A DNA stretch of 64,000 nt from Candidatus Shapirobacteria bacterium (GCA_003542615.1 DPKG01000014.1:8521-72520), one strand, 5' to 3'; shown: positions 3,724-60,141, counted from the first letter of the stretch. The notes: generated by a model not told the origin, from the sequence alone. Program-made: numbers and translations.

Positions 3724-4672
3724 GATTCAAAGTGAATTGTCTTCAAAAGTTGAAAATATCGCCCAAAAATTAGAATTACGCCAATTAGTCGTTATTCAAT
3801 TTTTAGTGTTGATTTCTTCGAAACTTAGATACACTAGCAGGGGCTTGACAAGAAAATTAGGACTACCACAGGTACATCTTTATAGACTAATTCATGAATT
3901 TTCGGATATTTTAGAACCCAAAGATGTGAACATTGAAACCAAAAAAGATTTGACTGGAGAAATTGCTAATTATGCAAAAAAAATGTTATTAGGAATCAAA
4001 ATTAACCAAAATGCCATTAAAGAAATGATAAATAAATATCAAAAAAATAGACCAAAACCAGACCGCAATTTAGATCAATTCAACGCCACCATGGCAACAA
4101 CGGTTAAAAGAGTTACTAAGTTAGCCAGTAACGGAGACTTAGTCGGCAAAGAAATTGCTTTTTTAGGAGACGATGATTTGGTTTCAATCGGGGTGGCCCT
4201 AACCCATCAATGTAAAAAAATAACAGTTTTCGAAATTGACGACCGATTAAATAATCTTATAATACAAATATCTCAAGAAAATAACTTAAATATTGAAGTG
4301 GTTAAACAGGATCTTCGTCAGCTTATAGATAAAAGTCACTTTGGTAAATACGATCTCGTTTTTACTGATCCTCCTTATACCAAAGGGGGAATTAATTTAT
4401 TTTTAAATCAAGCGATAAAATTAATCAAGAAAAACTTTTTAGGTCGAATTTATCTTTGCTATGGAAATAGTGATCGAGCCAGAGAAAGAGAAGTAGAAAT
4501 TCAAAAACTGATACTTGATCACAATTTAATTATTAAAACAAAACTTAATCAATTTAACAAATATTATGGGGCGGAAAGTATCGGGTCGCAAAGCTCGTTG
4601 TACATTTTAGATTGGACACCGAGTACCAAAACTGTCGAATTAAATTTTAAAAAAGTTTATACAAATGACTAA
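3722..4672 (+). CDS. DUF43/BpsA-like aminopropyltransferase (putative branched-chain polyamine synthase)
   Basis: 'FLGDDDLVSIGVAL' and 'LVFTDPPYTKGG' motifs, N-terminal winged-helix-like extension. The 3' end overlaps an AdoMet decarboxylase gene. Family assignment is from memory of the BpsA motifs and not verified. Confidence 0.45.
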   Translation: MIQSELSSKVENIAQKLELRQLVVIQFLVLISSKLRYTSRGLTRKLGLPQVHLYRLIHEFSDILEPKDVNIETKKDLTGEIANYAKKMLLGIKINQNAIKEMINKYQKNRPKPDRNLDQFNATMATTVKRVTKLASNGDLVGKEIAFLGDDDLVSIGVALTHQCKKITVFEIDDRLNNLIIQISQENNLNIEVVKQDLRQLIDKSHFGKYDLVFTDPPYTKGGINLFLNQAIKLIKKNFLGRIYLCYGNSDRAREREVEIQKLILDHNLIIKTKLNQFNKYYGAESIGSQSSLYILDWTPSTKTVELNFKKVYTND

Positions 4673-5006
4673 TTTCCCTTTTTTTCAACACTATGTTGCC
4701 AAATTAATTTTCACCAAAGAGGTGGAAATTAATGAAAAATTAACTGATCAAATTGCTAATTCATTGATTAAAAACCTTAGATTAAATGTGGTTAAACAAG
4801 GAAAACATCAGTTTACAAATAATGGTTTAACCAAATTTTGGATTTTATCCCAATCACATTTAGTTATCCACTCTTGGCCAGAAAATAACGCTCTTCACGT
4901 CGACTTAATGACCTGTAGTCCAATAGTCATTACTTCAAAAATTATTAAAGACTGTCTTTCTATATTTCCAATAAATGACATCTCTGTGACAAAGCTGAAA
5001 TATTAA
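4665..5006 (+). CDS. speH: S-adenosylmethionine decarboxylase proenzyme, small SpeH class
   Basis: 113 aa; 'SHLVIHSWPENNALHVDLMTCS' matches the AdoMetDC self-processing/active-site region (ESH...TWPE...D.FTC). Confidence 0.7.
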   Translation: MTNFPFFQHYVAKLIFTKEVEINEKLTDQIANSLIKNLRLNVVKQGKHQFTNNGLTKFWILSQSHLVIHSWPENNALHVDLMTCSPIVITSKIIKDCLSIFPINDISVTKLKY

Positions 5007-5048
5007 TCTTTTTTTATACAGTCTCATCAAATCTCATCAACAAACGGT

Positions 5049-5088
5049 GTTATAAGGATAGAAAGGTTCCAGACCCTAATGCTCCGCC
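5049..5088. repeat. conserved ~40-nt intergenic motif, copy 1 (GTTATAAGGATAGAAAGGTTCCAGACCC...CTCCGCC)
   Basis: About 30/38 identity to the copies at 9054 and 16131. Lies between the speH 3' end and a truncated HD-domain ORF. Confidence 0.6.
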
Positions 5089-5094
5089 AAAGGG

Positions 5095-5340
5095 TCAAAG
5101 TTCTATGCGGCCCACTTGGTGGCCAAGCATTGTCCTAACCTGTTGGTGTTTATTCCCTAATTTCAACATTTTTCGATTTAACGGCCTGTGATAGGTGAAT
5201 TTAGCAATTTTTTGGCAATAACTCATTACCCGTATTCCATGGTTTAATCGAAAGCCGTAGCCACCACCAAATTCCCAAACGTTTTGAAAAAGTTGTTTGT
5301 ATTCTGCTTTTAATTTACTTAATAATTCGGTATTTTCCAT
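5095..5340 (-). pseudogene. truncated HD-domain phosphohydrolase (N-terminal ~80 aa only)
   Basis: 'FRLNHGIRVMSYCQKIAK' resembles the first His region of HD domains. The ORF stops before the HD dyad; downstream sequence runs directly into motif copy 1. Confidence 0.4.
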
Positions 5341-5356
5341 ATGTTAAGATCATATC

Positions 5357-5971
5357 ATGAAAGTCTATTTTGTCCGCCATGGTTCCACCGATTCTTTGGA
5401 AAAGAAAATCAGTCAACCGAATGATGAGCCACTAAATCAAAAAGGTCTTAATCAAGCGAAAGGGCTGGCAGAAAGATTTGCAAAAACACAATTAGACTTG
5501 ATTGTTTCGAGTTCTCATCTTCGGGCAGTTCAAACAGCCAAAGCCATAAATGAGGAAATCCAGATTAGTGAATTATTCGTCGAAGTACGAAAACCTAGTG
5601 AGGTAATCGGTCGATCAAAAGAGGATGGAGAAATAAAAGTAATTCTTCAAAGGATAAGTGAAATGTACACCAAAAATCCTAATTGGCATTATTCGGATGA
5701 AGAGAATTTTGAAGATTTGAAAAAGCGGGGAATGCAGGCTTTGGAGTTTTTGAAATCACAGAACAAAGAAAATATTTTAGTAGTTTCTCATGGTCACTTT
5801 GTGGCCTTATTATTAGGGCTGATGTTATTTGGGAAAGAATTTCCGGTTGAGGCAGCTTTACTATTCAGAAATTTTTTTAGATTTGGCAATACCGGAGTGT
5901 CTATTTGTAAATATGAGGATAATAAATGGAAACTGCAGTGTTGGAATGACACATCACACTTACTGGAGTAA
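5357..5971 (+). CDS. histidine phosphatase superfamily protein (phosphoglycerate-mutase-like)
   Basis: N-terminal 'VYFVRHGST' (RHG catalytic motif); C-terminal 'VVSHGHF' second His motif. Confidence 0.7.
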   Translation: MKVYFVRHGSTDSLEKKISQPNDEPLNQKGLNQAKGLAERFAKTQLDLIVSSSHLRAVQTAKAINEEIQISELFVEVRKPSEVIGRSKEDGEIKVILQRISEMYTKNPNWHYSDEENFEDLKKRGMQALEFLKSQNKENILVVSHGHFVALLLGLMLFGKEFPVEAALLFRNFFRFGNTGVSICKYEDNKWKLQCWNDTSHLLE

Positions 5972-5975
5972 GGAT

Positions 5976-6497
5976 TCAAAAAAAATCTTTGGCATGTTTC
6001 GTTAATTGTTCAAAGTCGTCATAGTCATGAGTATTATTACCGGTATTTTTTATCAGATGATAATCAGCTGGGTTATTTTCTTTAAGGACCTTTACGAGAT
6101 CAGCAAAACTAAATAAAAAATCAAACTCATTTTGAATAAACATGGCGGGAATAGTCAATGACTTTAAATAATCATTGATGGGGAAGTTCATTTCTTTGGC
6201 TAAATTATATGGATGGCCGCAAATTATTATCTTTTTGGGACTAATTATTTTTTCATAAATACTTTTTAGAGCCAGAACTGAACCGATGGACTTGGCAAAG
6301 ACAAAATAATCTCTTTTGTCTTTAAGCAACTCTGTTAATTTTTCCGATTCTTTTTGAAGATTTATCCATTTGTCTCCGGTTTGCCAGTGATCGTAATACA
6401 GAATTTGACCGTCTGAAAATTTATCAAATTCTGCTTTAACTTCTTCAATCCAGATTTTATTATTTAGGCTATTACCGGCGAGATAAATGATGTGCAT
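5976..6497 (-). CDS. alpha/beta-hydrolase-like protein (YqiA/esterase-like), hypothetical
   Basis: 173 aa; 'IIYLAGNS' N-terminus and 'AKSIGS' near-nucleophile-elbow. Weak. Confidence 0.3.
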   Translation of the reverse strand: MHIIYLAGNSLNNKIWIEEVKAEFDKFSDGQILYYDHWQTGDKWINLQKESEKLTELLKDKRDYFVFAKSIGSVLALKSIYEKIISPKKIIICGHPYNLAKEMNFPINDYLKSLTIPAMFIQNEFDFLFSFADLVKVLKENNPADYHLIKNTGNNTHDYDDFEQLTKHAKDFF

Positions 6498-6633
6498 TTA
6501 TAGGGTAATTATATACTAGATTCGGTAAAGTATAGTTTGAGTAACAAACTTGTTTAATTTAGATCATCGTTTTAATACACTCCTTTAAACGGTGTTATAA
6601 AACCATCAAACTTCCACCTACAAGTTCAAGTTT

Positions 6634-7591: not shown

Positions 7592-8155
7592 ATGATAGTA
7601 ATGAATGATGAGGAGAAAAAAGTAAATCCAACAGAAGAAATAACCGATGACGGGATGGAGGAAAAAGTATTAATGGTTTGGGAAGCGGCTGAGAGAGCGT
7701 TTAAGAGAAGGGATAGGGATTTTTGGATAACGGCTATTGCGATATTGGTATTAGTGGGAGTGATATTTTTTATGATTGGAGAATTTTTTCTGGTGATTGC
7801 ACTGGCATCGATTTTATTTTTGGCATATGTACTTTCGACGGTACCTCCGGAGAATGTGGTCTGTAAAATTACAAATAGGGGGATATATTTCGGAGATTCG
7901 CATTATGGTTGGGACTTGTTGGAAAGGTTTTGGTTTAAAAAATCTTTGGATAGTGACGCGGTATTTTTTGAGACTAGGTTGAGATTTCCCAGACAGGTAT
8001 CGATGATAATCGATAAGTCAAGTGAAGAGAAAATTAAAGAAATTGTTATAAAGAGAATTCCGATGATGGAAAGTTCACCTTCAACAGTTGATAAGCTGAC
8101 CAATTGGTTTGCCCAAAGATTGCCTTTGGAGGATAGAAAGGAAAAATCCGAATAA
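7592..8155 (+). CDS. hypothetical membrane protein
   Basis: 187 aa with a central double-TM hairpin. Confidence 0.4.
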   Translation: MIVMNDEEKKVNPTEEITDDGMEEKVLMVWEAAERAFKRRDRDFWITAIAILVLVGVIFFMIGEFFLVIALASILFLAYVLSTVPPENVVCKITNRGIYFGDSHYGWDLLERFWFKKSLDSDAVFFETRLRFPRQVSMIIDKSSEEKIKEIVIKRIPMMESSPSTVDKLTNWFAQRLPLEDRKEKSE

Positions 8156-8197: not shown

Positions 8198-8269
8198 GCG
8201 CCCATAGTTTAATGGATAGAATAGCGGTTTGCGGAACCGTTGATCCGGGTTCGATTCCTGGTGGGCGCA
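8198..8269 (+). tRNA. tRNA-Arg (anticodon read as GCG; anticodon assignment uncertain)
   Basis: 72 nt cloverleaf: acceptor GCGCCCA/TGGGCGC, T-arm CCGGGTTCGATTCCTGG. The D-arm is nearly identical to the tRNA-Arg(CCG) at 13100. Anticodon loop TTGCGGA. A TATAAT box lies at about 8181. Confidence 0.65.
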
Positions 8270-8299
8270 CATATTAAAGCCATTGTTTTGGTGAATTTT

Positions 8300-8383
8300 G
8301 GAGGGTTGGCCGAGTGGTTTATGGCGCACGCTTCGAAAGCGTGTGGGCGAAAGCCCGCAGAGGTTCAAATCCTCTACCCTCCG
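8300..8383 (+). tRNA. tRNA-Ser (anticodon CGA)
   Basis: Acceptor GGAGGGT/ACCCTCC, anticodon loop TTCGAAA, long variable arm TGGGCGAAAGCCCGC, T-arm GAGGTTCAAATCCTC. No encoded CCA. Confidence 0.8.
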
Positions 8384-8388
8384 CTAAA

Positions 8389-9060
8389 ATGATAAATCTA
8401 AAAGATAAACTTTCCCACATCATTACTTCAAGGCCAGATGTAATTCAGTTTGCCAAAGACAGGAAGTATGAAGAGGCATGGATTATTAAATTAAGTGACA
8501 AAAAGCCAACTGAAGTAGACATTGAAAGATATTTAAAAAAAGACAAGTTTGAAACGATAATTGTTGAATATATTTGGAATTCCCAAGACGATAATAATCG
8601 GTTTGTTTTGACTTTGTTTCTTGACAAAAAATGTAAACTTCAGGACCCAAAGAAATTTATCGAGATATCGTTAGATCTTTTCTATACTTATTCTAATTTC
8701 GAGGATTTTTTGAACATTATTGATAATCAGATTATTGGATCGGAATATTTACTGTTAAATCAAACTGACTCGATAAATTTAGGTGTTTTTAATTATTGGC
8801 TGTCGGTAGGACCAGTTGATCTATGGAGTAAAAAAGAAATATATGACTTTGAAAAAATTAAATCAAAAATAAAAACACGACCGGAAATTGAAAGAACAGA
8901 TCTAAACTATCAAGGATTGTTGTTTAGGTTTAACGTAAGTGGAATTCTTGATGGTCCTTATTATGGAATTAAAACCCCGTGTTGTAACAAAATTGGAAAT
9001 GATTGGGTGATAGACTTTGATAAAGTTGAATATTGGACTAAATTGATGTTAGGGATATAA
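8389..9060 (+). CDS. hypothetical protein (224 aa) directly abutting tRNA-Ser(CGA)
   Basis: The track ORF 8314-9060 has a false N-terminus that translates the tRNA. The first ATG is 5 nt after the tRNA 3' end. No recognisable domain. Confidence 0.45.
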   Translation: MINLKDKLSHIITSRPDVIQFAKDRKYEEAWIIKLSDKKPTEVDIERYLKKDKFETIIVEYIWNSQDDNNRFVLTLFLDKKCKLQDPKKFIEISLDLFYTYSNFEDFLNIIDNQIIGSEYLLLNQTDSINLGVFNYWLSVGPVDLWSKKEIYDFEKIKSKIKTRPEIERTDLNYQGLLFRFNVSGILDGPYYGIKTPCCNKIGNDWVIDFDKVEYWTKLMLGI

Positions 9061-9092
9061 GGATAGAAAAGTTCCAAACTCATCTACTCCGC
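9054..9092. repeat. conserved ~40-nt motif, copy 2
   Basis: GATATAAGGATAGAAAAGTTCCAAACTCATCTACTCCGC; overlaps the stop codon of the 8389-9060 gene. Confidence 0.6.
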
Positions 9093-13099: not shown

Positions 13100-13171
13100 G
13101 TGCCCGTAGTTAAATGGATAGAATTCTCCCCTCCGAAGGGAGTGATGTGGGTTCAAGTCCCACCGGGCATA
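13100..13171 (+). tRNA. tRNA-Arg (anticodon CCG)
   Basis: Acceptor GTGCCCG/CGGGCAT, anticodon stem CTCCC/GGGAG with loop CTCCGAA, T-arm GTGGGTTCAAGTCCCAC. Confidence 0.8.
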
Positions 13172-13209
13172 CTTTTTTCAGTTTTGTTTTAAAATTTAAA
13201 ATAAAAATT

Positions 13210-14226
13210 ATGGGAAGTAATAAAAGTGCAGCAATAAATACAGGAGAAGATTTTAAAAAAGTAAAGGATTTGAGAGGACGGGAGAAAAATATTATTGACG
13301 ATATTTACAGGGAAACAGGATTTGAGATTGGTGAATTGATATGGAGTTCGGATTATTTTGGATCCGGGGTAGTTGGGGCTGTGACTTATAGGGGAAAATA
13401 TAAGAATAAAAAAGCAGTACTAAAAATCCAAGGAGCAAAGCCGGCAATATCGGAGGTGGAGATGATTGAAAGTTTCGAAAAACAGAATAAAAGCAAATTA
13501 ATTAGGACACCGAAAATATTTTGGCGAAAAAAGTGGAATGACAAAAGTCAATATGAGGCCATAATTATGGAGGAAATATGGGGGAACAAAATTGTAGAGG
13601 AAGGAAAGATAAGCGGAAAAGAAAATATAAAAGAATTTTTTGATATTTATCGTGAGTATAGGGATAAATGTATAAGAAAACCGTGGTTGGGAAAAGAGAA
13701 AAACAAAGAAAAGATTGGAGAGATGATAGAAAAAGCTTGGCAGTTAAGTTTGAAGATAAAACCGGAATCCCCTTTTCGTAGAGGTAGTAATAAAGAATTG
13801 GCATCTACAGCGGCAAGTTTGCTGGAAAAAACTTGGGGAGAGACAGAAAAAGAATTTGTGCACGGTCATTTGTCGGTGAATGATATAAAAAAGCAAGGAA
13901 GTGAGGTAATTATTTTTTCGAATTTGTTTTGGAAGTGGAAATATCCTTTTTATGATGCGGTATTTGGCTATCATTGGCAAATTTATTCTCTACATAAAAT
14001 TGCAGGGATTGGTCCGGAATTAATTGAAGAACAAAGAAATTTGTGGCTGGAAGAAATTTATAAGTTGGGAGATAGAAAATTAATCGGTGCGGCCTTGCTG
14101 GAAAGAGCAATAGCCGGTTTATTGCTGGATAGTTTTGCCTATATTGACAGTAATAATCCGGTGGCAGGATATTTGGTGGAGGCGACTAGAGCTGAAGTTA
14201 AAAGATTGATTAAAGAATTAGAGTAA
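13210..14226 (+). CDS. hypothetical protein, possibly kinase-like fold
   Basis: The track ORF 13114-14226 starts inside the tRNA; internal Met 'MGSNKS' at 13210 is used. 'FVHGHLSVNDI' weakly resembles an APH/protein-kinase catalytic loop. Unverified. Confidence 0.35.
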   Translation: MGSNKSAAINTGEDFKKVKDLRGREKNIIDDIYRETGFEIGELIWSSDYFGSGVVGAVTYRGKYKNKKAVLKIQGAKPAISEVEMIESFEKQNKSKLIRTPKIFWRKKWNDKSQYEAIIMEEIWGNKIVEEGKISGKENIKEFFDIYREYRDKCIRKPWLGKEKNKEKIGEMIEKAWQLSLKIKPESPFRRGSNKELASTAASLLEKTWGETEKEFVHGHLSVNDIKKQGSEVIIFSNLFWKWKYPFYDAVFGYHWQIYSLHKIAGIGPELIEEQRNLWLEEIYKLGDRKLIGAALLERAIAGLLLDSFAYIDSNNPVAGYLVEATRAEVKRLIKELE

Positions 14227-14233
14227 AAAATTG

Positions 14234-14827
14234 TTATTCTGTGGGAGCAAACTGTTTTAGCATTTCCTGATAATTTGGTGTTTCTTGGGAAAGATCAATA
14301 AAATTGATACCGGAAGGCGGCAGGAAATCGGAGTCTGAAACAGTGACCGGAGTACAGTTGTAATTATATTTCTGCTCAAAATCAAGCTTGGGGGTATCGG
14401 TATCGGGTGATGATTGATCATCTTCTACATCCGGACTTTCTTGAGATTGAGTCTTGGCAAGACTCATTTTAAAACCAGTATCGGGAACCTGGTCGTTCCA
14501 GGTATAGACTAATTCGCCGTCACTGACAGAGCGGAATACCATGGATTCTTCCGAGGTTTTAGAGTTTACAGTTTGGGAGAATTTTTGGCCGTCGATTAAC
14601 ATTTCACCTGAAGTACTATTCCCCTGTTCATCGGTATAACTCCAGGTACATTTTTGGGCTGATCCGAGACCCATAAGGTCTTTGAGAGATCGGGCAACTG
14701 ATTCTGATTGGGAGGGAGTTTGGTTTTGACTGGTGGTATCAGAATTATCGGGTTGAGCGGTCGGATTTAGGCTACAGGCAGATAAAAGTAAGGTGGCAGA
14801 AAGAAGGGTGAGGATTTGTTTTTTCAT
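14234..14827 (-). CDS. lipoprotein, hypothetical
   Basis: Signal peptide with lipobox 'LLLSAC', then a Ser/Thr/Gln-rich low-complexity linker. Confidence 0.5.
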   Translation of the reverse strand: MKKQILTLLSATLLLSACSLNPTAQPDNSDTTSQNQTPSQSESVARSLKDLMGLGSAQKCTWSYTDEQGNSTSGEMLIDGQKFSQTVNSKTSEESMVFRSVSDGELVYTWNDQVPDTGFKMSLAKTQSQESPDVEDDQSSPDTDTPKLDFEQKYNYNCTPVTVSDSDFLPPSGINFIDLSQETPNYQEMLKQFAPTE

Positions 14828-14915: not shown

Positions 14916-15398
14916 ATGACAAGAGGAACAAAAATTAGTGAAGAATTATATTACGACGAGAGATCGGCGGGAGGTTTGGTGTTTCGTAGAGACGAAGGTA
15001 AGATTAAATGGATGGTGATTCAAACTATGAGCCGAAAGAATCCTAAAAAAACTTTTTTTAAATTCCCAAAAGGTCACCTGAAAGAAAGAGAATTTTTAAA
15101 ACAGGCGGCGCTAAGAGAAGTGGAAGAAGAGGCAAAAATAAAGGCAAGAATTATGGCTAAATTGGGATCGTGGAATTATGTGATGTGGGACAAATTGACC
15201 AAGAAAAAAACGATTAAGAAAGTAACGTTTTTTTTGATGGAATATAGGGAGGAAAGTAACTTGAAATATTTTGATCAAGAGAGAGTGGTGGGAAGAGGGT
15301 GGTTTGATTTTGAAGAAGCCTTGGGAAAACTGGCTTATGACTCGGAAAAGATACTTTTGAAAAAGGCTAAAAATAAACTAGAATCGATGGTAAAATAA
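14916..15398 (+). CDS. NUDIX hydrolase
   Basis: Nudix box 'KGHLKEREFLKQAALREVEEEAKI' (GX5EX7REUXEEXGU pattern). Confidence 0.75.
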   Translation: MTRGTKISEELYYDERSAGGLVFRRDEGKIKWMVIQTMSRKNPKKTFFKFPKGHLKEREFLKQAALREVEEEAKIKARIMAKLGSWNYVMWDKLTKKKTIKKVTFFLMEYREESNLKYFDQERVVGRGWFDFEEALGKLAYDSEKILLKKAKNKLESMVK

Positions 15399-15405
15399 GA
15401 CACTT

Positions 15406-15492
15406 AGGAGGGGTCGGATAGTGGTTCATTCCACACGCTTGGAAAGCGTGCGCTGTAAAAAGCTCGCGGGTTCGAATCCCGCCCCCTCCGCC
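15406..15492 (+). tRNA. tRNA-Ser (anticodon GGA), CCA encoded
   Basis: Acceptor GGAGGGG/CCCCTCC, anticodon loop CTTGGAA, long variable arm, T-arm GCGGGTTCGAATCCCGC, 3' GCCA. Confidence 0.8.
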
Positions 15493-16131
15493 ATGCCAAA
15501 TAAAGATGTCTGGGAAATTACAAGTGCAATAATTCTTTCCTTTGGTGGCTCCAGCGTAATCTTGATTGGGTTAAGCACTTGGTTGGGTAAAGTGTGGGCA
15601 AACAGATTACTCGAAAAAGACAGGCTCAAATACAATTCTGAACTTGAAACAACAAAGGCAAAATATGAAAAACAGTTGGAAACATACAAACTCCAGCTTG
15701 AGAAATCCAAATCTTTGTTCTTTAGGTATTCTGAACATCAGTTCACCCTCTATAACGAATTATGGAGGCTTCTTTATAAGTTGAAGTTATTAGTAAATGA
15801 ATTGTGGGACCAGGCAAATTTTAAAAATTTAAGAGCATTTGCTCTTCACTTTGAAAAGACTATCGACTCTGTTGAAAAGCACAGCTTACTAATTGAGGAT
15901 AAACATCACGATAAGTTAAATGCAATTTTTAACACTCTCAACAAATTTAAAGTCAATAAAGAAACTATTGTTAAACTAAAAGATATAAAGGAAGAGGATA
16001 TCAAGCCAGACCACAATTCAGACACTATTCCTCGTTATGTTGCACAAAATAATGAATCAAAAAAACAGTTTGAAGCTCTACTTAAAATACTCGAGAGAGA
16101 TTTTAAGAAGCAAATTCGAGTGACTGGGTAG
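15493..16131 (+). CDS. hypothetical membrane-anchored coiled-coil protein directly abutting tRNA-Ser(GGA)
   Basis: The track ORF 15421-16131 has a false N-terminus covering the tRNA. The ATG overlaps the encoded CCA end of the tRNA (start within ~1 nt of 15492). N-terminal TM helix then a Lys/Glu-rich helical region. Confidence 0.45.
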   Translation: MPNKDVWEITSAIILSFGGSSVILIGLSTWLGKVWANRLLEKDRLKYNSELETTKAKYEKQLETYKLQLEKSKSLFFRYSEHQFTLYNELWRLLYKLKLLVNELWDQANFKNLRAFALHFEKTIDSVEKHSLLIEDKHHDKLNAIFNTLNKFKVNKETIVKLKDIKEEDIKPDHNSDTIPRYVAQNNESKKQFEALLKILERDFKKQIRVTG

Positions 16132-16170
16132 TTATAAGGGTAGAAAGGATCCAGACCCACCTACCCCGCC
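16131..16170. repeat. conserved ~40-nt motif, copy 3
   Basis: GTTATAAGGGTAGAAAGGATCCAGACCCACCTACCCCGCC; contains the inverted repeat GGGTAG...CTACCC; overlaps the stop codon of the preceding gene. Confidence 0.6.
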
Positions 16171-16196: not shown

Positions 16197-16709
16197 ATGG
16201 TGGAAACCCATCCTTTTGGAAATTTTGTCCCAGACAATTGTAAATATTTATTTTTAGGAACTTTTACCGGAAAAATAACTGACCCTTCATATGACTGGTT
16301 TTTTGGAACCAAAAGAAATCAATTTTGGCCAATGTTAGAGAGTGTTTTTGGGGTTGACCTAAAAACAAAAATCAATAAACAAGAACTATTTTCTAAGTTA
16401 CAGATGGCGATAGCTGACATTATTCTCCAATGCGAACGAAGTGAGAACTCAAATGCTGACAATAACTTAATTAATATTGTTTACAACACTAATGCAATTG
16501 GAAAAATAATTGAGAAAAATAAAATTAATGCGATTTTCTTTTCCAGTCGAATGGCAGAGAAATTATTCAAGAGAAATTTCAAAGAATTAACATCAAAATA
16601 TCCCGAAATTAATTTAGTGACATTACCTTCACCCTCTCCTAGATATGCAACAATAACAAAACTAGAGAAAATTATTCGTTACAAAGAATTATTGCCGAAG
16701 TTGAGTTAA
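16197..16709 (+). CDS. Mug/TDG-like DNA glycosylase (UDG superfamily), divergent
   Basis: 'FGTKRNQFWPML' aligns with E. coli Mug 'FAHPANRFWKVI' and 'VTLPSPSP' with Mug 'VLPNPSG'. The catalytic GINPG position reads 'GTFTG'. Confidence 0.5.
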   Translation: MVETHPFGNFVPDNCKYLFLGTFTGKITDPSYDWFFGTKRNQFWPMLESVFGVDLKTKINKQELFSKLQMAIADIILQCERSENSNADNNLINIVYNTNAIGKIIEKNKINAIFFSSRMAEKLFKRNFKELTSKYPEINLVTLPSPSPRYATITKLEKIIRYKELLPKLS

Positions 16710-16818
16710 TAAAATAGGTTTTAACTGCGTATTTCGACAAGCTCAATATAAATTAATGGTTCACCGGTAGTTGATACTTAGTAATTTGTGACTACTTCCA
16801 ATAAAACCTTATATCCGA

Positions 16819-54794: not shown

Positions 54795-55208
54795 TTATTT
54801 TAGAGTTTTAAACTCTTCATAATATTGAGCAACGATTTTTTTCCATTTGATAGTTTCGTTTGGCGGTCCGATGTTGTTTTTTGAATAAACTAAAAGAATT
54901 TTTACTATTTTATTGACAGTATCTACGGCGGCAATAATACGATTACCTGAAGATTTTGGGGAAGTATGAGTACCAGCCACCGCAAAATCTAGTTTAACTA
55001 TGATGTATTGCCCACAAGGACAAATAATGTCTAATTTTGAATCAGTCGGTTTATTGTTTGGGGCATAGTTGTCACATCTTTCAAATATTGACTTGACTGC
55101 AGAAATTGTAATATCCCACTGTTTACCTTTATATTTCTTAATAAAACCTTTTATATAATGCCTCTGTGCAAAATCCTCGATTAAAACGACATATCCATCA
55201 GTAGACAT
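54795..55208 (-). CDS. candidate toxin, RelE/ParE-like C-terminal region (137 aa)
   Basis: 'GNRIIAAVDTVNKIVKILLVYSK' resembles the RelE/ParE C-terminal beta-strands 'RIIYxVDxxxxxVxILRIxHRK'. 11-nt overlap with the upstream antitoxin-like gene. Confidence 0.4.
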   Translation of the reverse strand: MSTDGYVVLIEDFAQRHYIKGFIKKYKGKQWDITISAVKSIFERCDNYAPNNKPTDSKLDIICPCGQYIIVKLDFAVAGTHTSPKSSGNRIIAAVDTVNKIVKILLVYSKNNIGPPNETIKWKKIVAQYYEEFKTLK

Positions 55209-55878
55209 ATTCCGGATCTTGCTGAGTAATCAATTCGTAGGGAATTACCTCACCATCACGGCAAATTTTGTAGGGTAGTTGCTCGTGGGTAAATTTGACA
55301 ATCTCTTCAGTTCTCTTGCCCTGCCATTTTTGGGAAATGTTTTTGATTAATTTTTTTTCTTCAGTTTTTAATAGATTCGGTTTTAACATTTGCCCAGCCC
55401 GGGACAAACTAATCATTTGACTACCGTCTTTTTTAATTTCCAAATTGAGAACTCCTTCATTGATAAGCTCCTCTACCTTGGAAAAATATATGTTTGGGAC
55501 CGGACCTAGTTTTAGCCGGCGATATTTGGCACCGGTCATTGATTCAAGATGTTGGTAATACCAGGCAAAATCGTTTAAATAAATCAATTTAGCTAATTTT
55601 GTTTTGGTAATTTTACCGTCGGTAGCGGCACCATAACGGATAGTTTCCAGCAACACTTCACGGTATTTTTCCTCATCAACAATATCTTCGGATAAAATAT
55701 CTTGAGACTCGCAACCAAGCTTGTCGGCCAGCTTTTTAATCTGGTCAAGAGTAGGCGAACCAATCCCCTTCTCGAGAGCAATAAAAGTAGGTCGGGAAAC
55801 ACCGATTATTTTGGCCATATCTTCTTGAGTCCAATTGTTTTTCCGACGAATGCGGGAAAGAAAATCTTGATTAATCAT
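55198..55878 (-). CDS. XRE-family HTH fused to Panacea (DUF4065/SocA-like) domain; candidate PanA antitoxin
   Basis: N-terminal 'WTQEDMAKIIGVSRPTFIALEKG' HTH; C-terminal 'KTKLAKLIYLNDFAWYYQHLESMTGAKYRRLKLGPVP' matches the DUF4065 core (KLxKLLY...W...G..Y....GPV). Confidence 0.55.
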   Translation of the reverse strand: MINQDFLSRIRRKNNWTQEDMAKIIGVSRPTFIALEKGIGSPTLDQIKKLADKLGCESQDILSEDIVDEEKYREVLLETIRYGAATDGKITKTKLAKLIYLNDFAWYYQHLESMTGAKYRRLKLGPVPNIYFSKVEELINEGVLNLEIKKDGSQMISLSRAGQMLKPNLLKTEEKKLIKNISQKWQGKRTEEIVKFTHEQLPYKICRDGEVIPYELITQQDPEYVY

Positions 55879-55908
55879 ATATATAAATAGTAGACTATTG
55901 TAGCACTG

Positions 55909-56682
55909 GTGTCAATTGTATTGACATGGTGGTGTAAAAAAATTTTATTCATCCTCATATTTATATTGCCAGCCGGGTATGTTTTACATAAAACTAAATA
56001 CTTGATTGTTGATTATTTTAGTCCTATAATACATATGAAATTTAAACTTTATATGCTTAAAGAAGGATATTTTATTCCAAGGCATGATAAATATGGTCAA
56101 ACACTAAGATCTCGAGGTTTCGTCGGGGTAGAATCTTGGATAACTGCTAACTTGCAACGGCTAACGTTGGGTTCTAATGGGCCATTATTGCGGGATGAAC
56201 TGAATCGGTCAAACAGAGAGCTTAGAGACGTCTTGTCTTTTGGTGGAATTGTGACCTATGACGGAGATATCTTGGCTATTGGATTGGAAAATGTGGTTGA
56301 TGAGGAATTTATGTCGATTTTGCGTGAAAAAGGAGTAATAAAATGCACCGTTTTGAAAACCGAAAAATTACTTGGGGCTGACTTTAATGCTAATGTTCCA
56401 ATAAGACGTCAAACAAAAATAAACTTCTACGCTCCTCAATTGGATAGCCGCTTGTCATACTCAACAAGCAAGGGAAATTCATTCTTTTTTTGCCTTGATC
56501 GCGAAAAGTCTCTCCATCATGAATTTATCCCTTTTGAAAAACATATCGGTGGGGCGATATATGGAATTAAACTTCCGAAAGATATCTCAATCTCAACAGG
56601 TACCTTTTTAAGTCAAGTGCTTGCTGAGGCTTGTATGGAAAAAGGTTTTGGGTATGTACCACAGCATTGTGTCAAAAGATGA
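55909..56682 (+). CDS. hypothetical protein, divergent from the HTH gene (start possibly at 56035 'MKFKLYML')
   Basis: No family recognised. The first 40 aa of the track ORF are hydrophobic and may be a 5' extension. Confidence 0.35.
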   Translation: MSIVLTWWCKKILFILIFILPAGYVLHKTKYLIVDYFSPIIHMKFKLYMLKEGYFIPRHDKYGQTLRSRGFVGVESWITANLQRLTLGSNGPLLRDELNRSNRELRDVLSFGGIVTYDGDILAIGLENVVDEEFMSILREKGVIKCTVLKTEKLLGADFNANVPIRRQTKINFYAPQLDSRLSYSTSKGNSFFFCLDREKSLHHEFIPFEKHIGGAIYGIKLPKDISISTGTFLSQVLAEACMEKGFGYVPQHCVKR

Positions 56683-56697
56683 ATTCAAACTAATAAT

Positions 56698-57432
56698 TTA
56701 ATCGAACTTATGGCTGGCATGACGATAATTGCAAAATTCACAGTCGGGATTTGAATTGGGGATGGTTTCACTATTTAAACATTCGTGGGCCTTTAGGATA
56801 GTATCTTCAACCCAGGAATCATCACCAGTGTGCTCGACGATAGTCATTTTGAAATTTAGTTTGCCATCAAAGGCGGGTAGGTTTTTGTCGGCGTTGGCAA
56901 AAACAAAAAATCCCCTATTACTGACCTTAAACCCATTTTGCCTAAATAACCATTGATAAAAGTCCATTTGTCTTTTGTATCCTTGCTTATACTGATCCTC
57001 GAGTGATATTTCTTTTTGGGTACTAGTCGATTTGTAATCGACGATATAAAACTCCCCTGCCGGATTTATCCAAACATCATCGACAGCTCCAAAGACATGA
57101 AATTTAGTAGGTTCGTGGTCAACACTTATACCGGTAAAATTGGCTCTCCAGGTATCCATTCGATCGTCTTGATATGGTATGGCGTCAATACCGTATTGCT
57201 CCATCAACTCATGTGTCTGGCCGTTCTTGCGAAGTAAGTCGAATTCTTTTTTCAATAATTCGTCTACTGCTGAATTGAGGGTGTATCCGGGCATAGAAGG
57301 TCTCCCCACTCCTAGGCGTCGGTCCAAATAAAAACATTTGGGGCATTTGACAAAATCTTCAATTTTGCTGCGGCTGATTTGATAAAATTTCGATTCTTCT
57401 GGTTTGTACACTCCTTTATATGATGGGTGCAT
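56698..57432 (-). CDS. PD-(D/E)xK nuclease, Cas4/RecB-like, with Cys cluster
   Basis: 'VDDVWINPAGEFYIVDYKS' (D...E.K core), 'QMDFYQ' (QxxxY motif). N-terminal 'CPKC' and C-terminal 'C-x12-C-x2-C' as in Fe-S RecB-family nucleases. Confidence 0.55.
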   Translation of the reverse strand: MHPSYKGVYKPEESKFYQISRSKIEDFVKCPKCFYLDRRLGVGRPSMPGYTLNSAVDELLKKEFDLLRKNGQTHELMEQYGIDAIPYQDDRMDTWRANFTGISVDHEPTKFHVFGAVDDVWINPAGEFYIVDYKSTSTQKEISLEDQYKQGYKRQMDFYQWLFRQNGFKVSNRGFFVFANADKNLPAFDGKLNFKMTIVEHTGDDSWVEDTILKAHECLNSETIPNSNPDCEFCNYRHASHKFD

Positions 57433-57435
57433 GGG

Positions 57436-60141
57436 TTATTTTAAAATTTGTTTCTCAAACACTTCTTCAAATTTTTCACGCAATGCGCTGTTTACCTGTC
57501 CTTCGTTAAAGAAAGGCAAACCAATCAAACGAAAATCCTTATTTTCTATCTTCAAATCAACAGTGTGATTTTTTTCAATTTCAATCAATAGTTTCTGCTT
57601 CCATCCTTCTTTCGATTGCTCAAAAGTATTTTGCGCGTCTAAAAATTGATCGCCCTTTGGCTCAACAAAAATTTGGTACATAACTTCTTGCTTTGTCTTC
57701 TTCTCTGTCAAAAACAAAACGAAATCCGGATAAAACGGCTCGCCGTTTTCAAAGCAGTAAATTTTGAAAAATTGCTCGTTGCGAAGCAATGCAATGTTTT
57801 GATATTTTTTCTTTAACTTTATTATTGCCTCATCAATAAATCGCAAAAATGATTCTTCTTCACTCGTTCCCCAGATTTCGTTTTGAGCAAACCAGTCGCG
57901 AGTTCCAAAATCAAAATCCCTCATATTTTGCGCTCGCGGACTTTCGCTATCAAGTTGCAATACCTTGTCATTTTCAAATATTTTTTGGATCAAGTGTGCT
58001 TTGAATTCCTTTGTTCCATAATATTCCTTTTTCTCTTTGCCGGCGATTTCTAGCACTTTATCAATCACAAATTCGGCAATACTCAATTTTTCAATCTGCA
58101 AAAGATTTTCTACTTGCTCACTTGTGCCTTTCACCTTAATTTTTATTCTGCCAAGATATTTTTCGTTGGAAATAAAATCCTTTGCGGATTCTATATTGCC
58201 GAATATCTTTTTTAGCTCATAAAATCGACCGGCAGGTATTTTTGCCAAAGCGGTGCGGACAATATGCGTTCCCAAATCAGCAATTTTATAATCCATAGTT
58301 TCTATTTTTGCCTTTACTCCAGCGCCAGCCCCCGCCACAAACAAATCTTTTTCTATTGCTTCTCGTGTGGGTAGTTGAAAAATGTTTATTTCAGCATTGT
58401 GGTCAAATTCCGCTTTAGCGTCCGAGAGCGCAAAAACATCCTTACCCAAATTCTCCTTGCGAGAATTTAAGAAAATATAACCTTTCTTCCAAAAATCGCT
58501 GTTCTTAAAATTACTTTTGATCTTAATCTCTTTTTGCACTGTGCGTGACGGCATAATACCTTCACGAACCAAAACACTTTCCAATTCTTGGATATAACGG
58601 GGGTTCGTTACGCTGTGATAATAAAGCTGTTCCAAAATCCGTAGTTCGTTTTGTGTGTCGGTATCAAATTTTCGTCTATATGCGTCCGTAAAATCGCCGA
58701 GCGTAAATGGATAATATCTCGCGCCTCGTCCGATAAGCTGTGCCTCTTGTACTGTTGTTTTACCCGGCGTGTTGCTTTTGGCATCACGGCTATTATAGAG
58801 CCGGACAATATCAAAAAGATTCAAAACATCCCAACCCTCATTCAATTTTTCTGTCGCAAAAATAGCGCGAATTTCATTGCTTTGATCTTCCAAAGAATTA
58901 AGTAAAATTTGCTTTTGCTCTAAATCTTTATCTTCATCAACCGTCAAGCATTTTTCCGGCGCAAAATCACTTTTAATTTCTAACACTAAATCCGCCAAGG
59001 ATATTTTTTGCTCATTGAAAAATTGAAATGCTTTTTGCAATGTTGCGTCTTTAATGGCTGTTTGTTGTTTTAGATGTTTTTCGCCGAGTTCAGAAATAAG
59101 TTTATGAAAAGAATTTTTGAAAATGCTCGAAACGACAATTTGCGGATTATGTTCTTTTGATATTCCTTCTTTGGGGATACTTACTCTATTAGCTTTAAAC
59201 ATCACCACCGGCTTCAATGCGATTTTGTACTTTTCTGCCACTTTACGACGATATTGCGAAATAATCACCGCCGAAAGCGCGCGTTCCATAATCGGCGCGT
59301 TAATTTGCAAAGTTCGCACATCTTTTGAAAATCCGTCCAAGCGATATTCTTTCAGATCATAACGATAAATCGCTTTGTCTTTGTATTTTTCCAAAATTTC
59401 AGGATATTCCTGCTCGAGCCGAGCCGTTGCTGTAAATTCCAAAAGTATATTGTCTTTTTGACTGTTTGCGTTCAAAATTTGCACCACTGTATTTTCCCAG
59501 TTTCGGCGGTCTTCTTCTTCGGTTTTACTTATTTTATTATTTGTTTCCGCAGATAGATTGTGCGCTTCATCGGCAATCAAAACAATTTTTTTGTCCGCAA
59601 AATCTTCGTAAGTCAAAACATTTTCGCGAGCGAAATTAAAGCGAGAATGCAAAAGCGCGGTGGTAGAAAAAATAATGTTTATGTCAGCATTATTTACGCC
59701 TTCAAAATTATCTACTTCTTTAATTTTTATTTCCTGTCCGCCAAGCGTGATTTTGTCGGCAAACAAATACTTTTTGGAATTCGGATCAAGAAAATTGGCT
59801 TTGGTCTTTTGGATAATGTTGCCAAGGCGAGTAAAAAAAATGAAATTGCGGTAGCCTTTTTGATAAAAATACAAAAGATTGGCGGCCATGACGAGCGTCT
59901 TGCCCGAGCCGGTCGCCATATTAAACATCAAATGAATCGGCTTTTGTTTTTGGTGATATTCTTCAACATAATAATAAAATCGTCCCAGCGCTTCTTTCTG
60001 ATATTCGCGCGCTGGAAAAGCCGGATTAAGATTTTTCAAAATATCCGTTTTTTCTGTCGCCTTGTTTTTGAAAACATCAGCGCCAGCAAAGTTTTTATAT
60101 GAGTTAAATTCGTCGTAAAGCATTTTATTTAACAAAACCAA
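57436..60141 (-). CDS. res: Type III restriction enzyme Res subunit (SF2 helicase + C-terminal PD-ExK nuclease)
   Basis: 'MATGSGKT' Walker A, 'LIADEAHN' DEAH box, helicase C motifs, C-terminal 'YPDFVLF...IFVEPKG'. Confidence 0.8.
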   Translation of the reverse strand: MVLLNKMLYDEFNSYKNFAGADVFKNKATEKTDILKNLNPAFPAREYQKEALGRFYYYVEEYHQKQKPIHLMFNMATGSGKTLVMAANLLYFYQKGYRNFIFFTRLGNIIQKTKANFLDPNSKKYLFADKITLGGQEIKIKEVDNFEGVNNADINIIFSTTALLHSRFNFARENVLTYEDFADKKIVLIADEAHNLSAETNNKISKTEEEDRRNWENTVVQILNANSQKDNILLEFTATARLEQEYPEILEKYKDKAIYRYDLKEYRLDGFSKDVRTLQINAPIMERALSAVIISQYRRKVAEKYKIALKPVVMFKANRVSIPKEGISKEHNPQIVVSSIFKNSFHKLISELGEKHLKQQTAIKDATLQKAFQFFNEQKISLADLVLEIKSDFAPEKCLTVDEDKDLEQKQILLNSLEDQSNEIRAIFATEKLNEGWDVLNLFDIVRLYNSRDAKSNTPGKTTVQEAQLIGRGARYYPFTLGDFTDAYRRKFDTDTQNELRILEQLYYHSVTNPRYIQELESVLVREGIMPSRTVQKEIKIKSNFKNSDFWKKGYIFLNSRKENLGKDVFALSDAKAEFDHNAEINIFQLPTREAIEKDLFVAGAGAGVKAKIETMDYKIADLGTHIVRTALAKIPAGRFYELKKIFGNIESAKDFISNEKYLGRIKIKVKGTSEQVENLLQIEKLSIAEFVIDKVLEIAGKEKKEYYGTKEFKAHLIQKIFENDKVLQLDSESPRAQNMRDFDFGTRDWFAQNEIWGTSEEESFLRFIDEAIIKLKKKYQNIALLRNEQFFKIYCFENGEPFYPDFVLFLTEKKTKQEVMYQIFVEPKGDQFLDAQNTFEQSKEGWKQKLLIEIEKNHTVDLKIENKDFRLIGLPFFNEGQVNSALREKFEEVFEKQILK

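What the first reader, a model, noticed from the sequence alone, without database searches (positions are those of the whole stretch)
15406..16170. Second instance: tRNA-Ser(GGA) whose encoded CCA overlaps the ATG of the next gene, which again ends at the conserved motif
The terminal A of the genomically encoded CCA is the A of the downstream gene's ATG (gCCATGcc). The two downstream proteins (224 and 213 aa) are unrelated to each other. Both are flanked the same way: tRNA-Ser upstream, 40-nt motif overlapping the stop codon. Two independent occurrences argue for a repeated module, for example small cargo units inserted at tRNA-Ser genes or a shared processing/termination signal, not coincidence.
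Basis: seen in the sequence. Interest (0 to 1): 0.65.

Follow-up and report, generated by a model that had tools for sequence, protein, structure and literature searches.

The report
Gene cassettes stacked behind tRNA-Ser genes
In this small groundwater bacterium and its relatives, single genes are inserted one after another directly behind serine-tRNA genes, each ending in the same 40-base tRNA-like tag, a gene-capture layout like an integron but with different sites and no known enzyme.

Summary
tRNA-Ser(GGA) is at 15407-15493, and the A of its encoded CCA is the A of the true ATG of a 212-aa gene (15493-16131). That gene's stop abuts a 38-nt motif (16132-16169), which also ends the 223-aa gene behind tRNA-Ser(CGA) (9055-9092). 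The motif is a lineage-wide repeat, consensus GTTATAGGGATAGAAAGGTTCCAGACCCACCTGCTCCGC(CA). I found about 119 copies in 93 low-GC loci from Shapirobacteria, Woesebacteria and other Microgenomates. It delimits tandem units of 400-1300 bp, each with one ORF in either orientation, and the arrays preferentially start at tRNA-Ser 3' ends. A relative has the empty tRNA-Ser(CGA) site. The same cassettes recur at other array positions, with homology breaking exactly at ...CCGC| on the left and at the motif end on the right. Sequences just after tRNA-Ser ends match sequences just after motifs (11/25 trailers; other tRNAs 0/21). Best reading: an integron-like cassette system made by site-specific insertion at a short core shared by the tRNA-Ser 3' end and a tRNA-3'-mimic site. 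The recombinase was not found: none in the window, and no integrase family recurs near copies. The motif is not an intrinsic terminator, not a supported tRNA-like helix, and not in Rfam or the phage and plasmid collections. The CCA/ATG overlap fits this genome's leaderless-type gene starts.

The parts
15407..15493 (+). tRNA-Ser(GGA) with encoded CCA. It anchors the array and acts as the attachment site. A promoter-like site lies just upstream at 15357-15384.
   Evidence: NUDIX-tRNA-Ser(GGA) synteny is conserved in 14 related loci with different downstream content.
15493..16131 (+). Cassette A cargo: a 212-aa protein with a hydrophobic, helix-like N-terminal stretch (by eye) and no family assignment. 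Its ATG shares its A with the tRNA CCA.
16132..16169 (+). Cassette-end motif (a mimic of the tRNA 3' part): TTATAAGGGTAGAAAGGATCCAGACCCACCTACCCCGC. The unit boundary lies right after ...CCGC.
   Evidence: nhmmer E = 1.9e-11
16197..16709 (+). Cassette B cargo: a 170-aa protein like a hypoxanthine/uracil-DNA glycosylase, with its own -10 box (TATAAT) 5 nt before the ATG.
16713..16745 (+). Decayed, truncated motif variant (aataggttttaactgcg) followed by tatttcgacaagctca. The latter matches the flank family that elsewhere directly follows tRNA-Ser(CGA) or a motif. This is the probable end of the array.
   Evidence: by-eye comparison with the L047/L067 variant motif ATAGGTTCTAACTGCGTCAATGGTTCGCCGC
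8300..8384 (+). tRNA-Ser(CGA), no encoded CCA: anchor of the first instance.
8385..9092 (+). 708-bp cassette: the 223-aa ORF 8389-9060 plus the motif 9055-9092. It is absent from the orthologous site in L041.
   Evidence: ferric-reductase orthologue 83% identical
5013..5087 (+). Third motif copy (core 5050-5087) with a degenerate 'long-form' 5' extension (two GTCTCAT-like repeats). It follows the AdoMet-decarboxylase gene and is not next to a tRNA.
   Evidence: E = 1.1e-15
14916..15398 (+). NUDIX gene: the conserved left-hand neighbour of tRNA-Ser(GGA) across relatives. It is not part of a cassette.

Best explanation
The finding is the first unit of a two-cassette array behind tRNA-Ser(GGA). 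A one-cassette array sits behind tRNA-Ser(CGA). Across Microgenomates, single-gene units of 0.4-1.3 kb accumulate in tandem directly 3' of tRNA-Ser genes, and less often behind tRNA-Asp or behind dispersed copies of the site.

Each unit ends in a conserved site of about 40 bp. Its layout copies the last third of a tRNA: 5 + 7 + 5 nt like a T arm, 7 nt like the acceptor strand, then G and CC(A).

Shown by comparison: unit boundaries always fall right after ...YCCGC(CA), the only stretch shared by the tRNA-Ser 3' end and the site. A tRNA-Ser end and a site end are interchangeable left-hand partners for the same downstream sequences.

Inferred: the units are inserted, and perhaps excised, by conservative site-specific recombination at this short core. 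The enzyme would be encoded elsewhere in the genome and would recognise both the real tRNA T-arm/acceptor DNA and its mimic, as integron integrases recombine attI with attC, or as lambda-type integrases bind related core sites in attB and attP. The 'long form' of the site carries four copies of TGTCTYAT and may provide accessory binding sites.

Inferred for expression: this genome has almost no Shine-Dalgarno sequences and often places -10 boxes 5-7 nt before the ATG, so it probably uses leaderless mRNAs. A cassette ORF fused to the tRNA end has no promoter of its own. It must be co-transcribed with the tRNA and would become near-leaderless after tRNA 3' processing. The CCA/ATG overlap is an extreme of cassette compaction, not the defining feature.
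For: Motif distribution:
- About 119 copies in 93 low-GC loci. Within a locus the copies listed lie on one strand, spaced 400-1300 bp, with one ORF per unit.
- 14 of 53 array-first copies have a same-strand tRNA within 1.3 kb upstream, against 6% expected (p = 2e-6). Over all 73 copies with enough upstream sequence, 15 of the 18 nearby tRNAs are tRNA-Ser, 13 of them GGA.

Empty versus occupied site:
- L041 reads tRNA-Ser(CGA)...CCCTCCGC|actaatttag...ATG(ferric reductase).
- The window reads ...CCCTCCGC|[708 bp]...CTACTCCGC|aataatttat...ATG.

Same cassette in different positions, with homology breaking exactly at CCGC| and at the motif end:
- L033 versus L047: 91% over 608 nt. The left partner is a standard motif in one and a variant motif in the other.
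- L015, first unit behind the tRNA, versus L067, a later unit: 87% over 525 nt.
- L009, first unit, versus L018, last unit: 88% over 562 nt.
- The cargo-2 family is flanked by motifs on both sides in L001, not by a tRNA.
- A cargo-1 homologue is the second unit of a tRNA-Ser(GGA) array in L112.

Interchangeable junction partners: 11 of 25 distinct tRNA-Ser trailers match, anchored at the junction (at least 19 of 26 nt), a sequence that follows a motif elsewhere. For other tRNAs the count is 0 of 21.

Cargo is diverse: 36 proteins in 30 clusters, including NUDIX, His_Phos, Fic, NYN, HD, DUF4145, glycosyltransferase and unknown proteins.

Expression: 2 of 47 genes have an SD-like sequence. 19 of 43 have a -10-like hexamer ending 4-12 nt before the ATG, against 3 in a control window. 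L019 has a second, independent CCA/ATG fusion with a different cargo.
Against: - No recombinase was identified. There is none in the 64-kb window, none in the ten ORFs scanned from the larger units, and no integrase family among the 25 commonest families in 140 mid-size ORFs from about 90 loci.
- No circular or excised form, and no strain-level presence/absence of these cassettes, was seen. All 24 contigs read for the identical NUDIX protein carry the same array, so the window's cassettes look fixed.
- The shared core is only 4-8 nt.
- About half of the motif copies are not near a tRNA or another copy.
- Variable genes also sit behind tRNA-Arg genes without any motif, so tRNA flanks are plastic here by more than one route.
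- All evidence is comparative.
Confidence: 0.68

Rival explanations
1. The units are scars of classical tRNA-targeting islands or prophages. In this view, integrase-bearing elements integrated serially into tRNA-Ser, each leaving an attR, and the elements then decayed to single genes.
For: Insertion at the tRNA 3' end with the tRNA kept intact. Direct repeats resemble the tRNA 3' part. The long form has repeated 8-mers like arm-type sites. Terminal motifs of arrays are decayed.
Against: Units are compact, with one intact ORF filling 400-1300 bp; no pseudogene debris was evident by ORF inspection. No integrase or phage genes appear in or near the units. The motif is one conserved sequence across genera. 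It differs from every tRNA-Ser at the same positions (TTCCAGA versus TTCGAAT/TTCAAAT), so it is not an independently decayed tRNA fragment. There are no matches in IMG/VR, the phage or the plasmid collections.
Confidence: 0.15
2. The motif acts in RNA. It would be a tRNA-like processing (RNase Z/P 'punctuation') or 3'-end signal on transcripts, and the link with tRNA-Ser would reflect shared processing rather than insertion.
For: The geometry is that of a tRNA 3' part ending in G-CC(A). Positions 22 and 32 covary (GC 29, GU 19, AU 9). The motif abuts or overlaps stop codons, and the genome appears to use leaderless mRNAs. The motif strand is the G-rich strand in 47 of 60 loci.
Against: 17 of 45 cassette ORFs are on the opposite strand. 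Only 55% of cells pair in the minihelix model, and three of the five T-stem pairs are unpaired in more than 85% of copies. There is no RNAalifold structure for the long form, no Rfam match and no terminator call. Most downstream ORFs start well after the motif, typically 18 nt or more, and several have their own -10 box (by eye). This reading does not explain the empty site or the modular breakpoints. It could still be a secondary role.
Confidence: 0.08
3. Homologous recombination after DNA uptake. Conserved tRNA genes and the conserved motif would act as portable homology arms that swap the segments between them.
For: A strain variant (L123) replaces the 29-nt spacer between tRNA-Arg(GCG) and tRNA-Ser(CGA) with a 381-nt gene-bearing segment bounded by the two tRNAs, with no motif involved.
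Against: The same cassette follows left partners that share only CCGC: a tRNA end, a standard motif or a variant motif. The tRNA 3' end and the motif are only about 60-68% alike over 25-28 nt (my own by-eye count of the 28-nt 3' parts), too little for homologous exchange.
Confidence: 0.07

Closest known systems
Integrons (intI, attI, attC gene cassettes), especially sedentary chromosomal integrons
   Same: Tandem arrays of compact, mostly single-ORF cassettes of diverse and often unknown function. Each cassette ends in a conserved recombination-type site. The same cassette is found at different array positions. ORF ends overlap the site. Only a very short sequence is shared between the primary site and the cassette site. 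Terminal sites are decayed. The arrays are oriented relative to replication.
   Different: No intI next to the array or within the 64-kb window. The site has no R''/L''-L'/R' inverted-repeat architecture and no G|TTRRRY crossover box. The primary site is the 3' end of a tRNA-Ser gene rather than attI. 38% of cargo ORFs are reversed and many carry their own promoter. The host lineage is CPR/Microgenomates.
tRNA/tmRNA-gene-targeting genomic islands and prophages (as catalogued by Islander, PMC4383910)
   Same: Insertion at the 3' end of a tRNA gene leaves an intact tRNA. A tRNA-3'-like sequence marks the distal end. Insertions are tandem.
   Different: Islands carry their own tyrosine integrase, and the displaced fragment is a true copy of the tRNA end. 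Here the units are single genes without an integrase. The distal site is a conserved mimic that shares only about 4-8 nt exactly with the tRNA.
Integrase-less cis-mobilisable elements (CIMEs) in tandem accretion with ICEs, and pdif (XerC/D) modules of Acinetobacter plasmids (from my own knowledge, not tested here)
   Same: Small cargo modules bounded by recombination sites and moved by a recombinase encoded elsewhere.
   Different: CIMEs sit beside a helper ICE. pdif modules are flanked by inverted 28-bp dif-like sites. Neither a helper element nor a dif-like palindrome is present here.
tRNA punctuation of mitochondrial transcripts, which releases leaderless mRNAs (from my own knowledge)
   Same: An mRNA whose AUG lies at or next to a tRNA 3' end, in a system that seems to translate leaderless mRNAs.
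   Different: This concerns only the expression of the two tRNA-abutting cassettes. It is not the origin of the module, and no processing data exist for this organism.

Membership tests
Integron | An integron-type tyrosine recombinase gene (intI) adjacent to the cassette array | tested here: not met
   No recombinase family among the window ORFs scanned or annotated. No integrase among the 25 commonest families in 140 ORFs of 240-460 aa from about 90 motif loci. The rest of the genome could not be searched.
Integron | attC site: imperfect inverted repeats R''-L''...L'-R' with a conserved RYYYAAC / G|TTRRRY, the crossover lying in GTT | tested here: not met
   The consensus GTTATAGGGATAGAAAGGTTCCAGACCCACCTGCTCCGC has no such inverted cores (by inspection). 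The boundary is after CCGC at the 3' end, not at the 5' GTTATAG. The only supported pairing is 2 bp.
Integron | Tandem compact cassettes, one ORF plus one site each, with the same cassette movable between positions | tested here: met
   47 units between 150 and 1600 bp, 45 of them with an ORF of 60 aa or more, 30 protein clusters. Three cassette pairs occur in different positions with breaks at the unit ends.
tRNA-targeting genomic island (Islander definition) | Integration into the 3' part of a tRNA gene with the gene regenerated | tested here: met
   Intact tRNA-Ser genes score 53.9 and 57.5 bits. The relative L041 has the empty site.
tRNA-targeting genomic island (Islander definition) | The displaced fragment at the far end is a copy of the tRNA 3' segment | tested here: not met
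   The motif matches its own tRNA only weakly (local alignment scores 16-27, against 57 between the two motifs). The motif is one conserved sequence across loci and is distinct from all tRNA-Ser 3' ends.
tRNA-targeting genomic island (Islander definition) | An integrase gene inside the island | tested here: not met
Intrinsic terminator / REP-like 3' element | A GC-rich hairpin followed by a T run at the 3' end of co-oriented genes | tested here: not met
   No terminator call at 5050-5087, 9055-9092 or 16132-16169. 17 of 45 cargo ORFs are on the opposite strand.
tRNA-like RNA element (acceptor/T-arm minihelix) | A maintained 7-bp acceptor-like helix plus a 5-bp T-like helix, with covariation | tested here: not met
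   55% of cells are paired. Pairs 15-39, 19-35, 20-34 and 21-33 are unpaired in more than 85% of copies. Only 22-32 and 23-31 hold, and only 22-32 covaries. No Rfam hit.
CIME / trans-mobilised integrase-less module | A helper element or chromosomal recombinase that acts on the flanking sites | not testable with these tools
   This needs whole-genome co-occurrence analysis or experiments.

The most novel reading that the evidence does not exclude
Microgenomates (CPR) carry a previously undescribed gene-capture platform. The tRNA-Ser gene supplies the primary attachment site and, for cassettes fused to it, also the promoter and the processing site that would yield a leaderless mRNA. Every captured cassette brings a 40-bp mimic of the tRNA 3' part, which regenerates the attachment site for the next cassette. 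Recombination is done by a trans-encoded enzyme of unknown, possibly new, type.
Probability: 0.35. Interest if true: 0.85.

Novelty: new variant of a known kind. Interest (0 to 1): 0.68.

Why it matters
CPR bacteria have tiny genomes, and few mobile elements are described for them. How they gain and swap accessory genes is largely unknown. A conserved, sequence-defined cassette system anchored at tRNA-Ser genes would give a concrete mechanism for flexible gene content across a whole superphylum branch. It would provide a simple marker (the 40-nt site) for finding accessory genes in metagenomes. It would also give a defined pair of DNA sites with which to look for the responsible recombinase, which might be useful as a tool. 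Finally, it explains a recurrent annotation error: cargo ORFs wrongly extended into tRNA genes.

Tried and rejected
- The first genome scan used a pattern that was off by one N and found nothing. It was corrected after a local test.
- Rfam at gathering and at E-value thresholds returned only tRNAs and one chance hit.
- RNAalifold on 34 long-form copies gave no consensus structure.
- The minihelix model was tested and is not maintained. Folding single copies gave modest z-scores only.
- The IMG/VR scan and BLAST against phage and plasmid collections found nothing.
- The integrase hunt found nothing: Pfam on ten ORFs of the larger units, a crude catalytic-motif regex, and Pfam on 140 neighbouring ORFs.
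- PADLOC and NCBIfam gave nothing for the two cargo proteins.
- Strain-level polymorphism of the two cassettes was looked for and not seen.
- An IS200/IS605-type (HUH) model was considered because insertion is directional and 3' of a short target. I set it aside because the left ends fall into several unrelated sequence families with no common hairpin resembling the right-end site (by eye), and no transposase was seen.
- A dif/Xer-type site was rejected by inspection, because the motif has no 11-6-11 palindrome.
- The similarity of the motif to the D-arm of the window's tRNA-Ser(GGA) is not shared by the tRNA-Ser(GGA) of L019, so I treated it as coincidence.
- Literature searches for integrons or cassette systems in CPR, and for the motif sequence itself, found nothing relevant.

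Full report
**1. The observation.**
ARAGORN and Rfam find four tRNA genes in the window: tRNA-Arg(GCG) 8198-8270, tRNA-Ser(CGA) 8300-8384, tRNA-Arg(CCG) 13100-13172 and tRNA-Ser(GGA) 15407-15493.

The tRNA-Ser(GGA) gene ends ...CCCCCTCCGCCA, and the next bases are TGCC. The A of the encoded CCA is therefore the A of an ATG that opens a 212-aa ORF, 15493-16131. The tRNA-Ser(CGA) gene has no encoded CCA (...CCCTCCGCTAAAATG), and a 223-aa ORF, 8389-9060, starts 5 nt after it.

Both ORFs run into the same motif. The copy at 9055-9092 contains the TAA stop. The copy at 16132-16169 directly follows the TAG stop. A 35-nt degenerate consensus of the two copies is expected 0.00 times by chance in the window.

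The two proteins are unrelated and have no Pfam, PADLOC or NCBIfam assignment. Both are real genes. The 212-aa protein has 36 homologues. Nine of them, at 40-72% identity, all begin at the Met aligned with 15493. The 236-aa database version only adds a translation of the tRNA. The 223-aa protein has more than 128 homologues in Shapirobacteria, Roizmanbacteria and other Microgenomates. The identical database entry names the source as a Candidatus Shapirobacteria genome from groundwater.

**2. The motif is a lineage-wide repeat.**
In the closest relative of the 212-aa gene (L001, a 795-kb metagenome contig), the gene is not next to a tRNA. It is flanked on both sides by the motif, and three successive small genes each end in it.

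The same local search also found a third copy in the window at 5050-5087, after the AdoMet-decarboxylase gene.

One scan of species-representative genomes found the motif in MAGs labelled Shapirobacteria, Woesebacteria, Microgenomates and Patescibacteria. It also hit low-GC MAGs labelled otherwise, and gave about 11 chance hits in high-GC genomes that lack the conserved flank. One metagenome scan added 65 loci.

Altogether I collected about 119 copies in 93 low-GC loci. The consensus is GTTATAGGGATAGAAAGGTTCCAGACCCACCTGCTCCGC(CA) (positions fixed by the scan patterns are not independent evidence of conservation).

The layout copies the last third of a tRNA: 5 + 7 + 5 nt like a T arm with loop TTCCAGA, 7 nt like the acceptor 3' strand, then G and CC(A). 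The sequence differs from every real tRNA-Ser in the data at the same positions.

The motif is absent from Rfam, IMG/VR, the phage and plasmid collections, and the papers I could search.

**3. Anatomy of the arrays.**
- Within a locus, the copies listed lie on one strand, typically 400-1300 bp apart, with one ORF filling each unit.
- Of 45 units with an ORF, 28 have it on the motif strand and 17 on the other strand. The reversed ones include clear NUDIX, M20 peptidase, GT4 and HD genes.
- Cargo is very diverse: 36 proteins in 30 clusters. Identified families include NUDIX, histidine phosphatase, LD-carboxypeptidase, NYN, PNP/UDP phosphorylase, Fic, DUF4145, DUF4269-like, HD and glycosyltransferase. 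Several are unknown, some with hydrophobic N-termini.
- Arrays start directly behind tRNA-Ser(GGA) in at least 13 loci; behind tRNA-Ser(GCT) in L041, L053 and L101; behind tRNA-Ser(CGA) in the window and L076; and behind tRNA-Asp(GTC) in L052 and L054.
- Of 53 array-first copies with enough upstream sequence, 14 have a same-strand tRNA within 1.3 kb. The expectation is about 6% even in this tRNA-enriched sample (p = 2e-6). However, 39 of 73 copies have neither a tRNA nor another copy upstream.
- The gene order NUDIX-tRNA-Ser(GGA) is conserved in 14 loci, while what follows the tRNA differs.

**4. Evidence that the units are inserted modules with fixed ends.**

(a) Empty versus occupied site. 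L041 carries the orthologous tRNA-Arg(GCG)-tRNA-Ser(CGA) pair, with an identical tRNA-Ser 3' part. The ferric-reductase-like gene, 83% identical in protein, follows directly...CCCTCCGC|actaatttagaaaacgaatataa...ATG. In the window, 708 bp (8385-9092: the ORF plus the motif) lie between ...CCCTCCGC| and ...CTACTCCGC|aataatttataaaataaatataa...ATG.

(b) The same cassette in different positions.
- A 605-nt NUDIX(-)+motif unit follows a long-form motif in L033. It is 91% identical to the right part of a unit in L047. There it follows a different, variant motif (...GGTTCGCCGC|ACTTCG...). Homology begins at CGC| and ends at the last base of the motif in both.
- The first unit behind tRNA-Ser(GGA) in L015 is 87% identical to a later unit in L067.
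- The first unit in L009 is 88% identical to the last unit in L018, where its terminal motif is decayed.
- A homologue of the window's 223-aa gene is the second unit of a tRNA-Ser(GGA) array in L112, behind a degenerate motif. It lies in unrelated contexts in two other genomes.

(c) Interchangeable partners. The 26 nt that follow 11 of 25 distinct tRNA-Ser genes match, anchored at the junction with at least 19 identities, sequences that follow a motif copy elsewhere. None of 21 trailers of other tRNAs does.

Within the motif, the variable block at positions 34-38 travels with the upstream part, while the downstream flank varies independently (by eye). The exchange point therefore lies in or just after (C)TCCGC.

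(d) The window's array behind tRNA-Ser(GGA) probably has two units. The glycosylase-like gene 16197-16709 is followed by aataggttttaactgcg. This matches the variant motif of L047/L067 in truncated form. After it comes tatttcgacaagctca, a flank family that elsewhere follows tRNA-Ser(CGA) or a motif directly.

**5. What the motif is not.**
- It is not an intrinsic terminator: none is called at any of the three copies.
- A tRNA-like minihelix is not maintained. Only 55% of cells pair, and four of the twelve modelled pairs are unpaired in more than 85% of 60 distinct copies. Only the two inner pairs hold, of which 22-32 covaries (GC 29, GU 19, AU 9).
- About 40 copies are a 'long form' with a 5' extension of about 130 nt. 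It contains a hairpin GAGACAC/GTGTCTC, two direct TGTCTYAT repeats and one inverted one, and a TGnTAGAAT extended -10-like box. RNAalifold finds no consensus structure in it.
- The repeated 8-mers look like protein-binding sites. The TGATAGAAT box is the same as one 9 nt upstream of a gene start in the window. Its role is unresolved.

**6. The enzyme is missing.**
- No recombinase, transposase or reverse transcriptase is among the window ORFs scanned or annotated or the ten ORFs scanned from the larger units.
- None appears among the 25 commonest Pfam families in 140 ORFs of 240-460 aa taken from about 90 motif loci.
- Contigs carrying the identical NUDIX protein (24 read) all carry the same array, so the window's cassettes are fixed in that population.
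- Other strain variants do exist nearby. One (L123) has a 381-nt segment with a 112-aa ORF in place of the 29-nt spacer between tRNA-Arg(GCG) and tRNA-Ser(CGA), with no motif involved.

**7. The CCA/ATG overlap.**
- Only 2 of 47 genes in the window have an SD-like sequence. 19 of 43 have a TAnAWT hexamer ending 4-12 nt before the ATG, with the peak at 5-7 nt, against 3 in a control window. That is the signature of leaderless transcripts.
- The 212-aa gene has no room for a promoter. The nearest promoter-like site is upstream of the tRNA, at 15357-15384. The gene must therefore be transcribed with the tRNA.
- Cleavage after the discriminator base would leave CC-AUG, a near-leaderless mRNA. Trimming to the encoded CCA would destroy the AUG. 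This part is inference.
- The fusion is not unique. In L019 (another Shapirobacteria MAG), tRNA-Ser(GGA) ends ...CCTCCGCCATGAAATGT. There the ATG opens an unrelated 210-aa DUF4145 protein whose TAA stop lies inside the motif.
- In most other arrays the first ORF starts 20-160 nt after the tRNA, in several cases with its own -10 box (by eye). The overlap is thus an extreme of compaction, not a defining feature.

**8. Interpretation.**
The best-supported reading is an integron-like cassette system. Single-gene units are inserted by site-specific recombination at a short core (...YCCGC) shared by the tRNA-Ser 3' end and a cassette-borne mimic of the tRNA 3' part. Each inserted cassette regenerates a site for the next one.

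The resemblance of the mimic to the T-arm/acceptor DNA is explained if one recombinase must bind both partners.

Membership in the integron family fails on its defining features (no intI next to the arrays, no attC architecture). Membership in classical tRNA-targeting islands fails as well (no integrase, and the distal repeat is not a copy of the tRNA end).

I weigh the rivals as follows:
- Decayed classical islands: 0.15.
- An RNA processing or termination element: 0.08.
- Homologous exchange between conserved anchors: 0.07.

I found no description of such a system in CPR bacteria in the searchable literature. I therefore rate it a new variant of a known kind, resting on comparative evidence only.

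Noticed in passing
window, all gene starts (e.g. 14916, 16197, 36372, 39431, 60846): Almost no Shine-Dalgarno sequences (2 of 47 genes). -10-like boxes end 5-7 nt before many ATGs (19 of 43 within 4-12 nt, against 3 in a control window). The organism seems to use leaderless mRNAs widely.
   Followed up: partly
window 1-55000: Very strong positive GC skew on the + strand (often 0.3-0.5 per kb window), dropping after about 55 kb. Across loci the motif lies on the G-rich strand in 47 of 60 cases (25 of 27 where |skew| > 0.1), a stronger bias than that of long ORFs (275 versus 174).
   Followed up: partly
window 13173-14827: Two genes (338 aa on +, and a 197-aa lipoprotein-like gene on -) lie between tRNA-Arg(CCG) and the NUDIX gene. 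In several relatives (L019, L009, L068) NUDIX follows the tRNA within about 70-150 nt. This is variable content behind a tRNA-Arg, with no motif.
   Followed up: partly
L123 1408-1788 (strain variant of window 8271-8299): A 381-nt segment carrying a 112-aa ORF with its own -10 box replaces the 29-nt spacer between tRNA-Arg(GCG) and tRNA-Ser(CGA). The contig encodes the identical 187-aa upstream protein.
   Followed up: partly
L119 1-2040 versus window ~4600-6630: Another strain variant. The block with BpsA, AdoMet decarboxylase, the long-form motif, the histidine phosphatase gene and a 173-aa gene is replaced by DUF308, DUF1269 and a Crp-like regulator.
   Followed up: no
window 8314-9060 and 15421-16131; P0001, P0037; the L110 gene call: Public gene calls extend both cargo ORFs upstream through the tRNA genes (248 aa and 236 aa). 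This is an annotation artefact: the reading frames happen to stay open across the tRNAs.
   Followed up: yes
window 5095-5340 (- strand): An 81-aa ORF runs up to 7 nt short of the 5050-5087 motif copy. The roughly 110 nt after this motif copy (caaagggtcaaagttctatgcg...) are conserved in at least six other loci. There they end in a TATAAT box in front of different genes.
   Followed up: partly
L090 around 7652-7700; L051, L074, L100 long forms: A (GTA)n microsatellite sits inside one long-form copy. A GC-rich palindrome (CCTGCCTGCCGGCAGGCAGG) is inserted at the same point in several other long forms.
   Followed up: no
window 55000-63000: A cluster of defence-type genes: a type III restriction-modification methylase and Res helicase, a PD-(D/E)XK protein, an HTH-SocA/Panacea antitoxin-like protein, and a small GIY-YIG protein just beyond the window's end.
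   Followed up: no
L016 1756-1839: An 84-nt gene called tRNA-Ile(GAT). It has a long variable arm and an atypical 3' end (...CCCGTCCTCTAAAG), and lies 48 nt upstream of a motif copy. It may be a damaged class II tRNA.
   Followed up: no
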